In this document: piece by piece, positions 4,169 through 35,177 of the stretch | Layout: every line of letters starts with the position of its first letter | Position numbering within the stretch: the first letter of the stretch is position 1 | IMG/VR virus record: IMGVR_UViG_2576861193_000006 | Reading direction: 5' to 3' (one strand) | Length of the DNA stretch: 35,177 nucleotides | DNA from: a virus | Taxonomy: Duplodnaviria > Heunggongvirae > Uroviricota > Caudoviricetes | The notes under the pieces: model-generated | The model's input: only the letters and a program-made list of their open reading frames with translations | The model's database searches: none | What the model was told of the DNA's origin: nothing | Translations under genes and position numbers: made by a program

Positions 4169-4531
4169 TTAACGACCTGCTGCGCGGAGTTTTCCGTCAG
4201 GTTCACCGGCAAGAGTCAGTAATTGTCCCTGGTCTTCCTGCAGAATAGTCAGGCGGCCACCGCGATTGACATACATCGGCGTTTCGGTGGTGTCTTCTTC
4301 GGAAATTTTCCCGCGGTTAGTCGGGCGAACATATGAGAGTTTGTGTTTGATTTTCACACGGTTCTCATCAAATGGTTCGATTTCCAGGTTGAGCGAGACC
4401 TTACCTTTGGTTTTCGTGTTCATCACACCGGAAGCGACTTCACTGAGAACTGCGCCGATTTTGGTTTCAAATACGCCGCCGTCCAGCTCCCCGATAAATG
4501 CCTGCACATCAGTACTGCGTTCGCTAGCCAT
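4169..4531 (-). CDS. YfdP-like hypothetical protein (120 aa)
   Basis: ATG at 4531 with GAGGAG 7 nt upstream; the longer ORF to 4762 has no RBS and an implausible N-terminus. Confidence 0.65.
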   Translation of the reverse strand: MASERSTDVQAFIGELDGGVFETKIGAVLSEVASGVMNTKTKGKVSLNLEIEPFDENRVKIKHKLSYVRPTNRGKISEEDTTETPMYVNRGGRLTILQEDQGQLLTLAGEPDGKLRAAGR

Positions 4532-12692: not shown

Positions 12693-12709
12693 TTTTGTGG
12701 AGAACGTTG

Positions 12710-13075
12710 ATGCGTGATATTCAAATGGTTCTTGAACGTTGGGGGGCATGGGTGGCAAATAATCACGAGGATGTCACCTGGTCGTCTATTGCTGCAGGAT
12801 TTAAAGGACTAATCCCTTCAAAAGTAAAATCCCGCCCGCAATGTTGTGACGATGATGCGATGATCATTTGTGGGTGCATGGCTCGCCTGAAAAAGAACAA
12901 CAGCGATTTGCACGATTTATTAGTGGATTATTATGTAGGTGGTATGACGTTTATGGCGCTTGCCCGTAAACATGGGCGTTCTGATTGCTGGGTTGGGCGT
13001 TTATTGCAAAAGGCTGAAGGTGTAGTTGATGGCATGTTAATGATGTTAGAAATTGAGCTAGAGATGGATCGTTAG
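12710..13075 (+). CDS. Q: late-gene antiterminator Q (phage 82/21 / QuuD type)
   Basis: [36 protein letters not shown]; GGAG 7 nt upstream of ATG 12710; located just before the late promoter region. Confidence 0.85.
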
Positions 13076-13116
13076 AAGACCTCTTATTGAGGGGGTAATT
13101 GAATCAGTTTAATGTG

Positions 13117-13150
13117 TGGGGAGTCGATTTATTCTCCCCATTTTATTTAA
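13117..13150 (+). terminator. hairpin terminator after Q
   Basis: GGGGAG/CTCCCC stem (13118-13123/13134-13139) followed by ATTTTATTT. Confidence 0.45.
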
Positions 13151-13159
13151 TTAATTTAC

Positions 13160-13606
13160 TTAAGGTTTTAATTCATCAAGACGTTGTTGGATAGTGTTTT
13201 TGCTTGCGTTGTCTGTTATAGCCATTTGTTGTACTTGCCCCATTGCCATTTGAGTTTCCATCCACATATCGGCCCACACTTTTGTATCGTTATTAACTTG
13301 AGCGATAGTAAATCTGACTTTTGATACCGGGGTTGTTGAATAGGCATTGCCGATTAACATTTGTCCAAAAACAGCAGACCCGCCTTCCAGTTCTTTACCA
13401 CATATAACACTGCTGTTATCAGCGTTGTAAATTATCAACCCTCTACTATTGCAGTAATTCACAAGGGCATCTTTGACTTTATCTTTTGTCGTATTTTGAT
13501 AAACCCCCTCAGGTTTTCCTGATTGAGTTTTTTTTATCAATGGTACGGAAGAAGTACAACCTGAAATGATAGTTGCGCTAAGTAATAGTACAGTCATTTT
13601 ATTCAT
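13160..13606 (-). CDS. lipoprotein (moron), 148 aa, unknown function
   Basis: Signal peptide with lipobox LLSATIISG-C; antisense to the phage late operon; AT-rich island 13080-13850. Confidence 0.8.
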   Translation of the reverse strand: MNKMTVLLLSATIISGCTSSVPLIKKTQSGKPEGVYQNTTKDKVKDALVNYCNSRGLIIYNADNSSVICGKELEGGSAVFGQMLIGNAYSTTPVSKVRFTIAQVNNDTKVWADMWMETQMAMGQVQQMAITDNASKNTIQQRLDELKP

Positions 13607-13671
13607 GTTTCTTATCCATTGTTAAGGGCATACCTACACAATTATTTTTATTGGAGATGAATAATCAACCG

Positions 13672-13699
13672 TTTACAATCGTAAAAAATCAAATATGCT
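13672..13699 (+). promoter_or_regulatory. candidate late promoter PR'
   Basis: TTTACA (13672-13677), 16-nt spacer, TATGCT (13694-13699); about 30 nt upstream of a strong terminator, as for lambda PR'/tR'. Confidence 0.4.
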
Positions 13700-13728
13700 G
13701 TTAAGAGTGGTTACTTCGCCACACAACT

Positions 13729-13756
13729 TAAACCCGCCACTGAGCGGGTTTTTTGT
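13729..13756 (+). terminator. rho-independent terminator (tR'-like)
   Basis: AACCCGC-CACTGA-GCGGGTT followed by TTTTTG. Confidence 0.6.
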
Positions 13757-13852
13757 ACCTGTAAACTTGGTGCAGTACAGTAAACACGCTGGTGGTCGTG
13801 AATACTGACTTTTTATCTTGCTGGCTTTTTAGACAAGAGTTATTGGTATGTC

Positions 13853-14080
13853 ATGTTAACCAGAAGGGAAAAAGACATGCTAAAACAGCAAGATATGACA
13901 GAAACCGCCGCCGCAGTCCTTCATTTCTTACCTGCTGACAAGTGGGTAACGCCACGCATGATGACGAGAACTACCGGAGTAAGCGAAGCCCAGTGCCAGT
14001 TAATACTGACTCAGTTAGTTCTGGCGGGTCTGGCGAAGGATAACGGCGGGTACGGGAATAAATTCAGACGCTGCCAGTAA
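13853..14080 (+). CDS. small hypothetical protein (75 aa), possible winged-helix
   Basis: ORF immediately upstream of the methyltransferase; LILTQLVLAGLAKDNG segment; weak RBS. Confidence 0.45.
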   Translation: MLTRREKDMLKQQDMTETAAAVLHFLPADKWVTPRMMTRTTGVSEAQCQLILTQLVLAGLAKDNGGYGNKFRRCQ

Positions 14081-14230: not shown

Positions 14231-15283
14231 ATGAAAAATACTGTAAAAATAAACAGTGTTGATTTAATCAACGCTGATTGCCTGCATTTTATTCAGTCCC
14301 TGCCTGATAACTCCATTGATCTGATTGTTACCGATCCGCCGTACTTCAAAGTGAAGCCCAACGGCTGGGACAATCAGTGGAAAGGGGACGAAGATTACCT
14401 GAAGTGGCTGGACCACTGTCTGGCCCAGTTCTGGCGGGTACTGAAACCAGCCGGAAGCCTTTACCTGTTCTGTGGGCATCGCCTGGCATCTGATATTGAG
14501 ATCATGATGCGTGAACGTTTCAACGTGCTTAACCATATCATCTGGGCGAAGCCGTCCGGACGTTGGAATGGGTGTAATAAAGAAAGTCTGCGTGCATATT
14601 TTCCTGCCACAGAGCGCGTTCTGTTTGCTGAACATTACCAGGGGCCATATCGCGGCAAAAGTGACGGCTATGCGGCAAAAGAAAGGGAACTCAAACAGCA
14701 CATAATGGCACCGCTGATTTCGTATTTCAGGGATGCTCGTGCCGAACTGGGTATAACGGCAAAACAAATTGCCGAAGCCACAGGTAAGAAAAATATGGTT
14801 TCCCACTGGTTTGGTGCCAGTCAGTGGCAGTTGCCGAATGAGGCTGACTATCGGAAGTTACAGGCACTGTTTTCCCGTATAGCGGCAGAGAAGTTTCAGG
14901 AACAACAACTGGAACAACCACACCACCAGCTGGTGGCATCTTATGATTCACTGAATCGCAAATATTCTGAATTGCTGGATGAGTTTAAATCTCTCCGGCG
15001 CTATTTCTCCGTATCAGTCTCCGTGCCTTATACCGATGTCTGGATGCATAAACCCGTTCAGTTCTACCCGGGGAAACATCCGTGTGAGAAACCGGCGGAT
15101 ATGCTCAGGCAAATAATCAATGCCAGTAGTCGACCTGGTGATCTGGTTGCTGATTTTTTTATGGGATCCGGTTCCACAATAAAAGCAGCAATGGCGCTGG
15201 GGCGTCGGGCCTTAGGTGTTGAGCTTGAGTCAGAGCGGTTTAATCAGACAGTGAAAGAGATAAACGAGCTGGTGGGGAAATAA
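14231..15283 (+). CDS. orphan DNA methyltransferase (N6-adenine/N4-cytosine, beta class)
   Basis: Catalytic DPPY (LIVTDPPYF) near the N-terminus and AdoMet motif FFMGSGST near the C-terminus; no adjacent restriction endonuclease. Confidence 0.85.
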
Positions 15284-30984: not shown

Positions 30985-31728
30985 ATGACAGAGACAGAAT
31001 CAGCGATTCTGGCGCACGCCCGGCGATGTGCGCCAGCGGAGTCGTGCGGCTTCGTGGTGAGAACGCCGGAGGGGGAAAGATATTTTCCCTGCGTGAATAT
31101 CTCCGGTGAGCCGGAAGAGTATTTCCGGATGTCGCCGGAGGACTGGCTGCAGGCAGAAATGCAGGGTGAGATTGTGGCGCTGGTCCACAGTCACCCCGGT
31201 GGTCTGCCCTGGCTGAGTGAGGCCGATCGGCGGCTGCAGGTGCAGAGTGATTTGCCGTGGTGGCTGGTCTGCCGGGGGGCGATTTACAAGTTCCGCTGTG
31301 TGCCACATCTTACCGGGCGGCGCTTTGAGCACGGGGTGACGGACTGTTACACGCTGTTCCGGGATGCTTACCATCTGGCGGGGATTGAGATGCCGGATTT
31401 TCATCGCGAGGATGACTGGTGGCGTAACGGTCAGAATCTCTATTTGGATAATCTGGAGGCCACAGGGCTGTATCAGGTGCCGTTGTCAGCGGCGCAGCCG
31501 GGCGATGTGCTGCTGTGCTGTTTTGGTTCATCGGTGCCGAATCATGCCGCCATTTACTGTGGTGACGGCGAGCTGCTGCACCATATTCCTGAACAACTGA
31601 GCAAACGAGAGAGGTATACCGACAAATGGCAGCGACGCACACACTCCCTCTGGCGTCACCGGGCATGGCACGCATCTGCCTTTACGGGGATTTACAACGA
31701 TTTGGTCGCCGCATCGACCTTCGTGTGA
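30985..31728 (+). CDS. K: tail assembly protein K (JAB/MPN + NlpC/P60-like)
   Basis: HSHPGG JAMM-like motif and C-terminal Cys/His segment; overlaps I by about 100 nt as in lambda. Confidence 0.85.
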   Translation: MTETESAILAHARRCAPAESCGFVVRTPEGERYFPCVNISGEPEEYFRMSPEDWLQAEMQGEIVALVHSHPGGLPWLSEADRRLQVQSDLPWWLVCRGAIYKFRCVPHLTGRRFEHGVTDCYTLFRDAYHLAGIEMPDFHREDDWWRNGQNLYLDNLEATGLYQVPLSAAQPGDVLLCCFGSSVPNHAAIYCGDGELLHHIPEQLSKRERYTDKWQRRTHSLWRHRAWHASAFTGIYNDLVAASTFV

Positions 31729-32267
31729 AAACGGGGGCTGAAGCCATCCGGGCGCTGGCCACGCAGCTTCCGGCGTTTCGCCAGAAACTGAATGAGGGCT
31801 GGTATCAGGTGCGCATTTCCGGGCGTGATGCAGGCGAAAACGAATTATCTGCCCGTCTTAATGAGCCGCTGGCAAATGGTGCCGTGATCCACATCGTACC
31901 GCGTCTGGCGGGTGCCAAAAGTGGCGGTATTTTTCAGGCAGTGCTGGGTGCGGCGCTAATTGCTACGGCAATCTGGATGCCGGGGCTTAGTATTGTTGCA
32001 AGTAATCTCATGTTCTCTCTTGGGGCAGGTATGGTTTTAGGCGGTGTTGCGCAGATGCTGGCACCGAAAGCCAAAACGCCTAAAGTGTCAGCCACTGATA
32101 ACGGTAAGCAAAATACCTATTTTTCCTCATTGGATAACATGGTTGCCCAAGGCAATGTCCTGCCTGTTCTGTACGGTGAAATGCGCGTGGGGTCACGTGT
32201 GGCATCTCAGGAGATCAGCACGGCAGATGAAGGGGATGGTGGTCAGGTTGTGGTAATTGGGCGGTAA
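31626..32267 (+). CDS. I: tail assembly protein I
   Basis: MAATHTLPLASPGMARICLYGDLQRFGRRIDLRVKTGAEAIRALATQLPAFRQK ... matches lambda gpI. Confidence 0.85.
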   Translation: MAATHTLPLASPGMARICLYGDLQRFGRRIDLRVKTGAEAIRALATQLPAFRQKLNEGWYQVRISGRDAGENELSARLNEPLANGAVIHIVPRLAGAKSGGIFQAVLGAALIATAIWMPGLSIVASNLMFSLGAGMVLGGVAQMLAPKAKTPKVSATDNGKQNTYFSSLDNMVAQGNVLPVLYGEMRVGSRVASQEISTADEGDGGQVVVIGR

Positions 32268-32339
32268 TATTATTTACTCATGTTCTAACTGATTTAATAT
32301 TTATATCGAACACTGATAATTATTCTGTTGGTTAGCTAT

Positions 32340-32678
32340 ATGAACAAAACGATTTTATTCTGCACGATTATTGCCTTAACAGGATGTAAATCTTTGGATT
32401 ACGTAAAATCCGGCAAGCCTGTAATGGAAGGTAATTCATTAAAAAATATTGATGAATTGTCAGGCTGCATATCCAGACAATGGGCTGGTAATGGAACACC
32501 TATAACATCCATTCCTATTGAGAATGGGGTAAGCCTTTTAGTTCCACAGGCTATGGGTGGGTATGATGTTGTGCTTGATATCAAAAAAGCAGGAAATGGC
32601 AGTAGTTTTACTCTTTATGAACGCGTACCAGCATTAACGCCAAAAATTTTTGCTGATAGTGTTAATGCATGTAAATAA
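32340..32678 (+). CDS. lipoprotein (moron) between I and J, 112 aa, unknown function
   Basis: Signal peptide with lipobox IIALTG-C; AT-rich island 32268-32700 between conserved tail genes; own downstream terminator. Confidence 0.75.
   Translation: MNKTILFCTIIALTGCKSLDYVKSGKPVMEGNSLKNIDELSGCISRQWAGNGTPITSIPIENGVSLLVPQAMGGYDVVLDIKKAGNGSSFTLYERVPALTPKIFADSVNACK

Positions 32679-32741: not shown

Positions 32742-35177
<2,436 letters not shown>

What the first reader, a model, noticed from the sequence alone, without database searches (positions are those of the whole stretch)
13076..13700. Antisense lipoprotein moron in the Q-to-late-promoter hotspot
A 148-aa lipoprotein gene (13160-13606, minus strand) sits in an AT-rich island between Q and the candidate PR'/tR'. 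This is the classical cargo hotspot of lambdoid phages (stx, nmpC, cold-shock genes occupy it in other prophages). Antisense orientation, distinct base composition and flanking hairpins indicate an independently expressed lysogenic-conversion or exclusion gene. I could not match the sequence to Bor, Lom, Cor or another known family from memory.
Basis: partly seen in the sequence, partly recalled or inferred. Interest (0 to 1): 0.5.

Follow-up and report, generated by a model that had tools for sequence, protein, structure and literature searches.

The report
Prophage cargo gene for membrane lipoprotein
A small, AT-rich, backwards-facing gene for an outer-membrane lipoprotein of unknown function has been inserted between a prophage's late-gene activator Q and its late promoter; it is a real, conserved piece of phage cargo that turns up at different places in many phages, most often among the tail-tip genes, which hints at (but does not prove) a role in blocking other phages.

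Summary
A 148-aa ORF lies at 13160-13606 on the minus strand. It has a signal peptide and a lipobox (IISG-C17). Its GC content is 0.376, against about 0.5 in the flanks. It is a real gene: pN is far below pS against homologs, and it matches phrog_3152 ("unknown function") over its full length. It is 100% identical in the plaque-forming phages PhiR40_1 and PhiR55_1 and occurs in 185 of 5426 complete E. coli genomes, always in this context.

Comparison with H-19B and DLP12 shows a ~0.6-kb cassette (about 13072-13670). It is spliced between the Q codons ...LEMD(R) and the -35 of the late promoter PR' (13672-13699, with a terminator at 13730-13754). DLP12 carries nmpC, also antisense, in the same slot.

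Homologs at 40-72% identity sit at other junctions in other phages. Most are co-oriented inside the tail-tip block (TMP|M, M|L, K|I). Others lie in the nin region, in a P1-like element and in a Mu-like element. This is typical moron behaviour.

The predicted fold is a generic BamC/KA1-like helix-grip. The protein does not match Bor, Cor, Llp, Lom, TraT or any defence model.

The function is unproven. My best inference is envelope-level superinfection exclusion, at about 0.35-0.4. This is an ordinary but well-defined moron from an uncharacterised family, of moderate to low interest.

The parts
12710..13075 (+). Antiterminator Q (PF06530). It is 83% identical to H-19B Q, 84% to DLP12 QuuD and 93% to Lambda_ev087 Q. 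All four diverge immediately after ...LEMD, and the 23-residue C-terminal tail of H-19B Q is absent here.
13072..13670 (.). Inserted AT-rich cassette of about 0.6 kb. The left junction is where similarity to H-19B Q stops (after GAGATGGATCG). The right junction is where similarity to the H-19B/DLP12 PR' region starts (GTTTAC).
   Evidence: breakpoints of partial matches in 1463 E. coli genomes fall at window 13672-13731
13118..13139 (+). GC-rich hairpin (GGGGAG-N10-CTCCCC). On the + strand it is followed by TTTTATTT, which is terminator-like for the Q transcript. On the minus strand it follows the lipoprotein stop codon but has no U-run.
13160..13606 (-). Lipoprotein CDS, 148 aa, phrog_3152. 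The signal peptide is residues 1-16. The lipobox Cys17 codon is at 13556-13558. The mature protein is 132 aa. The predicted fold is beta-alpha-beta-beta-alpha-beta-beta-beta-alpha (helix-grip).
13641..13668 (-). Candidate sigma-70 promoter of the lipoprotein gene (TTGATT-16-AATAAT, 9/12), about 35 nt upstream of the ATG. It lies back to back with PR', with the two -35 hexamers 3 bp apart. This is a consensus match only.
   Evidence: the sequence read
13672..13699 (+). Late promoter PR' by homology (TTTACA-16-TATGCT). It aligns with the H-19B sequence that overlaps the Q stop codon and with the element upstream of essD in DLP12.
   Evidence: spacing check against the 258-nt PR'-tR' distance reported in PMC7547250
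13730..13754 (+). PR'-proximal intrinsic terminator (AAACCCGC-CACTGA-GCGGGTTT followed by further T residues through 13754). It is conserved in H-19B, DLP12, 569R4, Ayreon and hundreds of Stx phages, and is part of the late leader rather than of the cassette.

Best explanation
SHOWN.
- A self-contained cargo cassette of about 0.6 kb (a 'moron') has been recombined into the joint between the end of the antiterminator gene Q and the late promoter PR' of a lambdoid prophage. In doing so it replaced the dispensable C-terminal tail of Q.
- It carries one gene, antisense to the phage's early and late transcription.
- The product has a signal peptide and a lipobox. No family member has Asp at position +2.
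- It has two conserved cysteines (C52, C69) and a compact alpha+beta helix-grip domain.

From these features I infer that the product is lipidated at Cys17 and anchored in the inner leaflet of the outer membrane, facing the periplasm.

INFERRED, expression. The gene is transcribed from its own sigma-70 promoter, divergent from PR'. It would therefore be made in the lysogen independently of the lytic programme, and would be insulated from late transcription because it lies upstream of PR'.

INFERRED, function (least certain). The protein acts at the cell envelope to exclude incoming phages, either by binding the periplasmic face of an outer-membrane component or by blocking the tail-tip/tape-measure step of genome delivery. 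Known exclusion proteins of siphophages work this way: the lipoproteins Llp, Cor and Rtp45, and the inner-membrane protein HK97 gp15. In other phages the same gene is embedded, co-oriented, among the tail-tip genes. There it would also be expressed late and would protect progeny from adsorbing to debris.

CONFIDENCE. About 0.9 for the anatomy (moron cassette encoding an exported lipoprotein). About 0.35-0.4 for the exclusion function. The figure given is for the whole statement.
For: Gene reality and lipoprotein nature:
-.
- 115 of 148 family representatives have a lipobox, and none has Asp at +2.

Insertion:
- In H-19B the Q stop codon lies inside the PR' spacer.
- The window has 0.6 kb between the same two sequences.
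- DLP12 has antisense nmpC in the same slot.
- 569R4 has two other antisense ORFs there.

Viability: PhiR40_1 and PhiR55_1 are plaque-forming phages that are 100% identical across the region (PMC13190303).

Mobility:
- Homologs lie between K and I in Salmonella, Jejubacter, Morganella and several IMG/VR phages.
- Homologs lie between TMP and M in Citrobacter and others, and between M and L in others.
- Homologs also occur before J in Proteus, in the nin region in Phytobacter, in a P1-like element in Enterobacter, next to GemA in Halomonas, and next to a MobA relaxase.
- About 22 of 36 non-E. coli loci fall inside the tail-tip block, at 5 or more different junctions, always co-oriented with the tail genes.

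Cassette architecture in homologs:
- A canonical terminator follows the stop codon directly in Citrobacter, Salmonella and Jejubacter.
- Citrobacter also has a promoter-like TTGATT-17-TATTAT site.

Base composition: low GC relative to flanks in 4 of 6 contexts.

Precedent for periplasmic exclusion lipoproteins that bind outer-membrane receptors from inside: PMC9586334 (listed) and PMC12685063.
Against: - There is no direct evidence of any function. There is no sequence or fold similarity to Llp, Cor, Rtp45, Bor or TraT and no PADLOC hit.
- The known exclusion lipoproteins are about 6-8 kDa. By my arithmetic from the 132-residue length, this mature protein is about 14-15 kDa.
- The family is not tied to one receptor-binding domain. 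The J C-termini of PhiR40_1 and the Salmonella phage are unrelated.
- The tail-module bias could reflect inheritance with tail modules, or permissive junctions, rather than function. The loci are not independent samples.
- In this window the gene is far from the tail genes.
- The promoter is only a 9/12 consensus match, and the 3' hairpin lacks a U-run in the gene's own direction.
- A large non-phage branch of the family exists (823 clusters, some fused to PDZ). The domain therefore has some general periplasmic role.
Confidence: 0.4

Rival explanations
1. Host-fitness (lysogenic conversion) factor. The lipoprotein alters the envelope to the host's benefit, for example through serum or complement resistance as with Bor and TraT, through adhesion, or through lipid binding and membrane maintenance as with the lipocalin Blc. 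It would have no role in phage-phage competition.
For: Other cargo just downstream of Q consists of outer-membrane proteins of this type: the porin NmpC in DLP12 (in this same Q-PR' slot) and the lipocalin lipoprotein Blc in Lambda_ev087 (after Q and a terminator). The helix-grip/SRPBCC/KA1-like fold is often lipid-binding or ligand-binding. The antisense orientation and separate promoter fit expression in the lysogen. The gene is carried by human, animal and environmental E. coli.
Confidence: 0.25
2. Periplasmic immunity or inhibitor protein against bacterial weapons. Examples would be an orphan immunity protein against a T6SS or CDI peptidoglycan hydrolase, against a lysozyme-type bacteriocin, or against a colicin. 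It would be carried by mobile elements as a public good.
For: It is a small periplasmic lipoprotein with conserved polar surface motifs (T-x-SGxPE, GNxYSTTP, ETQMAxGQ). It occurs on phages, a P1-like plasmid prophage, a Mu-like element and a mobilisable element. Many immunity proteins are orphan lipoproteins (my own knowledge).
Against: No cognate effector gene is nearby in any context examined. There is no hit to known immunity or inhibitor families such as MliC/PliC, Ivy, Tai or Tli in Pfam or NCBIfam. This reading does not explain the tail-module bias.
Confidence: 0.1
3. The selected function is regulatory. On this view, transcription of the antisense cassette runs past its weak 3' hairpin into Q and damps Q expression, acting as a PaQ-like brake on late gene expression. 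The protein would be incidental.
For: The hairpin after the stop codon has no U-run in the gene's direction, so read-through into the 3' end of Q is plausible. The cassette promoter is back to back with PR'.
Against: The protein is under strong purifying selection. It is conserved at 40-72% identity in contexts where it is co-oriented and nowhere near Q. The hairpin may still terminate transcription.
Confidence: 0.03
4. Chance ORF or annotation artefact in AT-rich intergenic DNA.
For: The databases call it 'hypothetical protein', and no curated family matches it.
Against: P(open by chance) is about 1e-5. It matches phrog_3152 at E=1e-104 over the full length. A further 823 clusters are related. 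pN is far below pS. The AlphaFold model is confident, with pLDDT 85.8. The lipobox Cys is invariant.
Confidence: 0.01

Closest known systems
nmpC locus of the cryptic prophage DLP12 (E. coli K-12)
   Same: Identical architecture: a Q homolog (QuuD, 84% identical to this Q) ending just after ...LEMD, then a hairpin, then an antisense outer-membrane cargo gene, then the same PR'-like promoter and terminator, then the lysis genes.
   Different: The DLP12 cargo is a 16-strand-porin-type gene (interrupted by IS5), not a lipoprotein. The insert is about 2.9 kb rather than 0.6 kb. The nmpC promoter lies about 360 bp from PR', not back to back with it.
Superinfection-exclusion lipoproteins of siphophages: T5 Llp (FhuA), T1/phi80/N15 Cor (FhuA), Rtp Rtp45 (LptDE)
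   Same: All are phage-encoded, Sec/Lgt-type lipoproteins anchored in the inner leaflet of the outer membrane. Their genes usually lie beside tail or receptor-binding genes, as do most homologs of this gene. For mechanism, see PMC9586334 and PMC12685063.
   Different: There is no detectable sequence or fold similarity. Those proteins are about 6-8 kDa, while this mature protein has 132 residues (about 14-15 kDa) and a helix-grip fold. No exclusion phenotype is known. In this window the gene is next to Q, not the tail genes.
HK97 gp15 moron (Cumby et al. 2012, J Bacteriol 194:5012; cited from the reference list of PMC13190303, paper not held)
   Same: It is a single-gene moron inserted inside the tail gene cluster of a lambdoid phage, expressed from the prophage, and it blocks genome entry at the tape-measure step. 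Many homologs of this lipoprotein sit directly next to the tape-measure gene.
   Different: gp15 is an inner-membrane protein, not a lipoprotein, and it is unrelated in sequence.
Lambda Bor / plasmid TraT (serum-resistance lipoproteins) and phage-borne Blc lipocalin
   Same: These are prophage-borne outer-membrane lipoproteins expressed in lysogens. Blc sits in antisense orientation just downstream of a 93%-identical Q (after a terminator) in Lambda_ev087.
   Different: There is no hit to PF06291 (Bor), TraT or lipocalin models, and the fold is different.
BamC N-terminal domain, DUF4468, DUF3568 (Flpp3) and KA1 helix-grip domains
   Different: Identity is 6-10%, no match reaches Foldseek E <= 1e-3, and none of the family's conserved motifs is shared. 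This is a fold-level resemblance only and carries no functional inference.

Membership tests
Moron (Hendrix/Juhala sense: autonomous extra gene in a phage genome) | The gene is present at a junction where close relatives have nothing or something else. | tested here: met
   H-19B has no insert, with the Q stop inside PR'. DLP12 has nmpC. 569R4 has two other ORFs.
Moron (Hendrix/Juhala sense: autonomous extra gene in a phage genome) | Base composition differs from the surrounding phage genes. | tested here: met
   GC is 0.376 against 0.53 and 0.49 in the flanks. Homologs are also low in GC in 4 of 6 contexts.
Moron (Hendrix/Juhala sense: autonomous extra gene in a phage genome) | The gene has its own promoter and terminator flanking it. 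| tested here: inconclusive
   There is a promoter-like TTGATT-16-AATAAT site (9/12) upstream. The 3' hairpin lacks a U-run in the gene's direction. Homolog cassettes in Citrobacter, Salmonella and Jejubacter do have canonical terminators, and Citrobacter has a promoter-like site.
Moron (Hendrix/Juhala sense: autonomous extra gene in a phage genome) | The gene is expressed from the repressed prophage. | not testable with these tools
   This needs RNA-seq or 5'-RACE on a lysogen.
Bacterial lipoprotein (Lgt/LspA/Lnt pathway) | An N-terminal signal peptide ending in a lipobox [LVI][ASTVI][GAS]C. | tested here: met
   The sequence is MNKMTVLLLSATIISG-C17. The Cys is invariant in 20/20 and 58/58 aligned homologs, and 115 of 148 representatives have a lipobox.
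Bacterial lipoprotein (Lgt/LspA/Lnt pathway) | Outer-membrane sorting, meaning no Asp at position +2. | tested here: met
   The +2 residue is Thr here. Across representatives it is A, V, S, T, M, G, Q, L or I and never D. The sorting rule itself comes from established E. coli Lol biology.
Bacterial lipoprotein (Lgt/LspA/Lnt pathway) | Demonstrated acylation and globomycin sensitivity. | not testable with these tools
   This is an experimental test.
Bor (PF06291), TraT, Lom/Ail | A match to the family profile. | tested here: not met
   A Pfam scan at E <= 0.1 returned only noise (SapB_1, SUR7). NCBIfam returned nothing.
Cor / Llp / Rtp45 exclusion lipoproteins | Sequence or fold similarity to a family member. 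| tested here: not met
Cor / Llp / Rtp45 exclusion lipoproteins | The gene is adjacent to tail or receptor-binding genes. | tested here: inconclusive
   This is not the case in this window, where the gene is next to Q. It is the case for about 22 of 36 homologous loci in other phages.
Cor / Llp / Rtp45 exclusion lipoproteins | The protein blocks adsorption or infection by binding an outer-membrane receptor from the periplasm. | not testable with these tools
   This needs plating, adsorption and binding experiments.
Known anti-phage defence systems (PADLOC-DB 2.0) | A match to any defence protein model. | tested here: not met
   There were 0 families at E <= 0.1.
phrog_3152 (PHROGs v4, unknown function) | A full-length profile match. 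| tested here: met
   E=1.3e-104, residues 1-148 against profile positions 1-148.
BamC-like helix-grip domain | Significant structural superposition together with the BamD-binding N-terminal segment. | tested here: inconclusive

The most novel reading that the evidence does not exclude
The protein founds a new class of phage exclusion lipoprotein. It would be a helix-grip, outer-membrane-anchored protein of about 14-15 kDa, unrelated to Llp, Cor or Rtp45. It would block siphophage genome delivery at an envelope step conserved across Enterobacterales, Haemophilus and Halomonas, independent of which receptor the J protein uses. Phages would have recruited it from a large, undescribed family of periplasmic lipoprotein domains (823 clusters, some fused to PDZ).
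Probability: 0.25. Interest if true: 0.6.

Novelty: new member of a known kind. Interest (0 to 1): 0.35.

Why it matters
Cargo genes of temperate phages are a main source of phage-resistance and virulence traits, yet most remain 'hypothetical'. This one is easy to work on. It is a single small gene, it is present in two cultivable phages (PhiR40_1 and PhiR55_1) and in 3.4% of complete E. coli genomes, and it has a confident structural model. Its repeated placement among tail-tip genes gives a concrete hypothesis to test.

If the protein excludes phages, it would add a structurally new type to the short list of periplasmic exclusion lipoproteins. It would also matter for phage-therapy host-range prediction. 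If it does not, it is simply one more envelope moron.

The analysis also documents the Q-end/PR' joint (GAGATGGAT ... GTTTAC) as a recombination slot. That slot accepts antisense outer-membrane cargo without disabling Q.

Tried and rejected
- Pfam, NCBIfam and PADLOC scans of the protein gave nothing, or noise only.
- PDB sequence searches with the single protein and with a 58-sequence profile gave only signal-peptide-level hits, E >= 0.19.
- Foldseek against viral structures (BFVD) gave nothing at E <= 1e-3.
- Foldseek against AFDB50 could not be run because the library is not installed.
- The UniRef label 'VirB7' on the Xenorhabdus homolog is, from my own knowledge, probably a lipobox-rule artefact. 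I ignored it.
- tblastn against 50,697 phage records found only PhiR40_1 and PhiR55_1.
- Literature searches for the accession, for the PR' sequence and for exclusion lipoproteins found no study of this gene.
- I looked for a link to one receptor-binding domain of J and found none.
- I looked for conserved operon partners in non-phage members and found none.
- The search for related loci with the broad alignment failed because there was no sufficiently conserved stretch. The close alignment worked.
- An Rfam scan of the region gave only a sub-threshold STnc130 hit, and there are no tRNAs in the window.
- I considered whether PR' might lie directly after Q, with the late transcript reading antisense through the gene. 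I rejected this because the H-19B/DLP12 PR' homology lies at 13672-13699, downstream of the gene.
Full report
**1. The observation**

The ORF listing gives an ORF at 13160-13606 on the minus strand, 148 aa, starting MNKMTVLLLSATIISGCTSS. It has a basic n-region and a hydrophobic core, and the motif I-S-G-C17 is a standard lipobox.

GC content falls to 0.36-0.38 between 13000 and 13900. Upstream it is 0.47-0.59 and downstream about 0.48-0.55. The gene itself is 0.376, against 0.53 and 0.49 in 3-kb flanks.

The upstream + strand gene is antiterminator Q (PF06530, E=2e-51). Downstream on the + strand come a small ORF (phrog_331), an N6/N4 DNA methyltransferase, a P21-type holin, a lysozyme and Rz. 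With the local base composition, the chance of 148 stop-free codons is about 1e-5.

**2. It is a real, conserved gene**

- The protein matches phrog_3152 (function unknown) end to end, E=1.3e-104.
- It has no Pfam, NCBIfam or PADLOC match.
- The 625-bp region is 100% identical in Escherichia phages PhiR40_1 and PhiR55_1. It occurs in 185 of 5426 complete E. coli genomes, always on the chromosome, annotated 'hypothetical protein' (WP_001038608.1).
- About 30 clusters at 50-72% identity exist in Salmonella, Jejubacter, Citrobacter, Enterobacter, Phytobacter, Morganella and Xenorhabdus.
- An exhaustive profile search finds 823 clusters (50% identity level) at E <= 1e-3.
- In alignments, Cys17 is invariant. 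Also conserved are T-x-S-G-x-P-E (27-33), C52, C69, G-N-x-Y-S-T-x-P (86-93), K-V-W-x-D-x-W-x-E-T-Q-M-x-x-G-Q (109-124) and N133/N137/Q140.
- Against six homologous genes, pN is 0.18-0.48 and pS is 0.70-0.87. Where dS is not saturated, dN/dS is 0.07-0.24.
- AlphaFold2 gives a confident model (pLDDT 85.8, pTM 0.76) with order beta-alpha-beta-beta-alpha-beta-beta-beta-alpha.

**3. Where exactly it sits**

The Q protein is 83% identical to Q of the Stx1 phage H-19B, 84% to QuuD of DLP12 and 93% to Q of Lambda_ev087. All four are colinear up to ...LEMD and then diverge completely.

In H-19B, Q runs on for 23 more residues after ...LEMDR, and its stop codon lies inside the sequence AGTTTACGATCGTAAAAATCTGCATATCATGATAAGAGTGGTTAC...AACCCGCCGATGCGCGGGTTTTTTT. 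The window has the same element at 13671-13757: GTTTACAATCGTAAAAAATCAAATATGCTGTTAAGAGTGGTTAC...AAACCCGCCACTGAGCGGGTTTTTT. This contains a promoter-like TTTACA-16-TATGCT (13672-13699) and a strong hairpin followed by a T-run (13730-13754).

I take this to be PR' plus a promoter-proximal terminator, for three reasons:
- Its position is directly after Q in H-19B.
- It is conserved in hundreds of Stx phages.
- A spacing check fits. If the H-19B start is about 7 nt after its -10 hexamer, the second terminator in H-19B ends 258 nt downstream. That is the PR'-tR' distance reported for the near-identical Sakai Stx phages (PMC7547250; my arithmetic).

The same paper reports that PR' is constitutively active and terminated in lysogens.

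About 0.6 kb (roughly 13072-13670) has therefore been inserted between the Q core and the -35 of PR', replacing the Q tail. The arrangement is functional. PhiR40_1 and PhiR55_1 were propagated on ECOR13 and E. coli C, and PhiR40.1 and PhiR55.1 were used as test phages in PMC13190303.

All 185 E. coli genomes that have the gene have the whole 12900-13900 stretch. Another approximately 1280 genomes share only the part from 13672-13731 onward. In E. coli this is therefore a single, fixed module.

**4. The slot is a known one, but not the stx slot**

In DLP12 of K-12, the sequence GGTTTACGTACGTAAAAAATTGGTTATGCTGTTAAGAGTGGTTAC...AAACCCGCCGTCGAGCGGGTTTTT lies between the 5' end of nmpC and essD. DLP12 thus has the same order: Q, a hairpin, an antisense outer-membrane cargo gene, PR' and terminator, then the lysis genes.

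Phage vB_EcoS-569R4 has two other antisense ORFs immediately upstream of the same PR'. Lambda_ev087 has an antisense Blc lipocalin lipoprotein after Q and a terminator.

stx, by contrast, lies downstream of PR'/tR' and is co-oriented (PMC6266700).

A consequence of the upstream position is that late transcription never crosses the lipoprotein gene. Only early transcription running out of Q could do so, and the hairpin at 13118-13139 with its + strand T-run is placed to stop that.

**5. Signals of the cassette itself**

On the minus strand, TTGATT-16-AATAAT (13668-13641) lies about 35 nt upstream of the ATG. Its -35 hexamer is 3 bp from the -35 of PR', so the two promoters are divergent and back to back. 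This is a 9/12 consensus match and nothing more.

A higher-scoring site (13625-13596) has its -10 hexamer inside the ORF, so it cannot drive the full-length protein.

After the stop codon, the hairpin GGGGAG-N10-CTCCCC lacks a U-run in the gene's direction. Termination there is therefore uncertain.

In the Citrobacter, Salmonella and Jejubacter homologs, a canonical terminator (GACCCGCTYCGGCGGGTTTTTTTA, or its equivalent) directly follows the stop codon. Citrobacter also has TTGATT-17-TATTAT upstream. That is the textbook promoter-gene-terminator moron layout.

**6. The same gene at other junctions**

Neighbours were classified by BLASTP against annotated tail and early proteins and by Pfam.

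| Position of the homolog | Where found |
|---|---|
| K / lipoprotein / I | Salmonella, Morganella, Jejubacter (within a cluster of small cargo genes), at least four IMG/VR phages |
| TMP / lipoprotein / M | Citrobacter, three IMG/VR phages |
| Directly after TMP | Several further loci, including Haemophilus |
| M / lipoprotein / L | Two IMG/VR phages |
| Before a DUF6950/NlpC-P60 protein and J | Proteus |
| Just upstream of TMP | One locus |
| nin region, between a RecA-like gene and a LexA-like/RusA/DUF968 block | Phytobacter, one IMG/VR phage |
| P1-like element, after ddrB | Enterobacter |
| Next to GemA of a Mu-like prophage | Halomonas |
| Next to a MobA/MobL relaxase | A distant metagenomic member |
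| At prophage edges (icd, truA-dedA) | Two loci |

Roughly 22 of 36 non-E. coli loci lie in the tail-tip block, at five or more different junctions, always co-oriented with the tail genes. The loci are not phylogenetically independent, so I treat this as suggestive rather than statistical proof.

The J C-terminal domains of PhiR40_1 and the Salmonella phage are unrelated. The gene is therefore not tied to one receptor specificity.

The wider family also includes chromosomal, stand-alone members and fusions to a C-terminal PDZ domain (15 of 50 sampled, biased towards long proteins). No Pfam or NCBIfam model covers the domain.

**7. Structure**

All are at 6-12% identity. Foldseek ranks DUF4468, BamC-N, a 'TBP-like' protein and KA1 first, none below E=1e-3. 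BFVD gave nothing at E <= 1e-3.

The fold is a common helix-grip alpha+beta sandwich. I draw no function from it. Neither Llp nor Rtp45 appears among the listed top matches.

**8. What it most likely does**

Shown:
- It is a mobile single-gene cassette.
- Its product has a signal peptide, a lipobox and no Asp at +2. Outer-membrane, periplasm-facing localisation follows from the E. coli Lol sorting rule and is an inference.
- The two conserved cysteines fit a periplasmic disulfide (inference).

Inferred: it is expressed in the lysogen from its own promoter.

For function, I favour envelope-level exclusion of incoming phages, at about 0.35-0.4, for three reasons:
- The only well-understood phage-borne periplasmic lipoproteins of siphophages do exactly this. 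Llp acts on FhuA (PMC9586334). Rtp45 acts on LptDE (PMC12685063). Cor is a further example, from my own knowledge.
- Their genes, and the HK97 gp15 exclusion moron, sit in or beside tail modules. So do most homologs of this gene.
- The gene is carried by very different temperate elements (lambdoid, P1-like, Mu-like, mobilisable). That fits a competition function useful to any resident element.

Against this:
- There is no homology to those proteins, and this protein has roughly twice their mass.
- There is no link to a receptor type.
- There is a large non-phage branch of the family.
- There is no experiment.

Rivals are a host-fitness envelope factor of the Bor/TraT/Blc type (0.25), an immunity or inhibitor protein against bacterial weapons (0.1), a mainly regulatory antisense role towards Q (0.03) and a chance ORF (refuted).

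**9. Novelty and score**

The gene is already catalogued (phrog_3152, RefSeq hypothetical) but uncharacterised. Its kind, a prophage moron encoding an outer-membrane lipoprotein in the Q-PR' slot, is well known from DLP12 nmpC, Bor and Cor. I file it as a new member of a known kind.

Two things here go beyond the annotation: the precise junctions, and the repeated association of the family with tail-tip genes. The second makes an exclusion hypothesis cheaply testable in PhiR40_1.

Interest is 0.35. A phage biologist would not be surprised, but the family is a reasonable candidate for a structurally new exclusion lipoprotein.

Noticed in passing
window 32328-32678 (+) and 33345-35105 (-): After tail gene I (31626-32267) the window does not continue into J. 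Instead it has a 116-aa ORF (phrog_914, unknown function) and a 586-aa antisense ORF with no Pfam, PHROG or PADLOC hit. This is further cargo in the K/I-J junction, which is the junction where homologs of the lipoprotein sit in other phages.
   Followed up: partly
L014 (Escherichia phage Lambda_ev087) 2050-2574, minus strand: A phage with a 93%-identical Q carries an antisense Blc lipocalin (outer-membrane lipoprotein) gene just after Q and a terminator. This is another lipoprotein cargo in nearly the same place.
   Followed up: partly
L017 (Escherichia phage vB_EcoS-569R4) 1-519 and 506-1366, minus strand: Two antisense ORFs lie directly upstream of the same PR' element. One is 286 aa (phrog_2802, unknown function). 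The other is 173 aa with no hit. There is no PADLOC match. They may be an uncharacterised two-gene cargo in the Q-PR' slot.
   Followed up: partly
L018 (E. coli K-12 DLP12) 4187-4275: A PR'-like promoter and terminator nearly identical to the window's lie between nmpC and essD. nmpC is therefore inserted between quuD and PR', not downstream of PR'.
   Followed up: yes
window 13730-13754; L015 (H-19B) 1982-2010 and 2197-2223: The conserved terminator begins only about 25 nt after the predicted PR' start. H-19B has this hairpin and also a second terminator 258 nt from the start, which fits the published tR'. How a strong terminator so close to the promoter coexists with the reported 258-nt StxS precursor is unexplained.
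   Followed up: partly
window 13722-13858, minus strand: A sub-threshold Rfam match to the enterobacterial sRNA STnc130 (30.1 bits against a gathering score of 55, E=0.053) overlaps the late leader on the opposite strand. It is probably driven by the terminator hairpin.
   Followed up: no
proteins P0046-P0193; locus L008 6001-6810: The lipoprotein domain belongs to a large family with no Pfam or NCBIfam model: 823 clusters at the 50% identity level. About a third of the top representatives are longer than 190 aa. Many carry a C-terminal PDZ domain, and single cases carry TPR/YbgF-like, SH3_3 or SHOCT domains. This is an undescribed periplasmic domain family.
   Followed up: partly
window 13853-14080 and 14231-15283 (+): The late operon opens with a small phrog_331 ORF and an orphan N6/N4 DNA methyltransferase (PF01555; PADLOC MTase_II, E=1e-152) ahead of the holin. 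The same block follows a different Q in phage Ayreon.
   Followed up: no
window 12695 versus 12710: The mechanical ORF for Q starts at a TTG at 12695 (126 aa). RefSeq and GenBank annotate the ATG at 12710 (121 aa, MRDIQ...), which matches the N-termini of H-19B Q and QuuD.
   Followed up: yes
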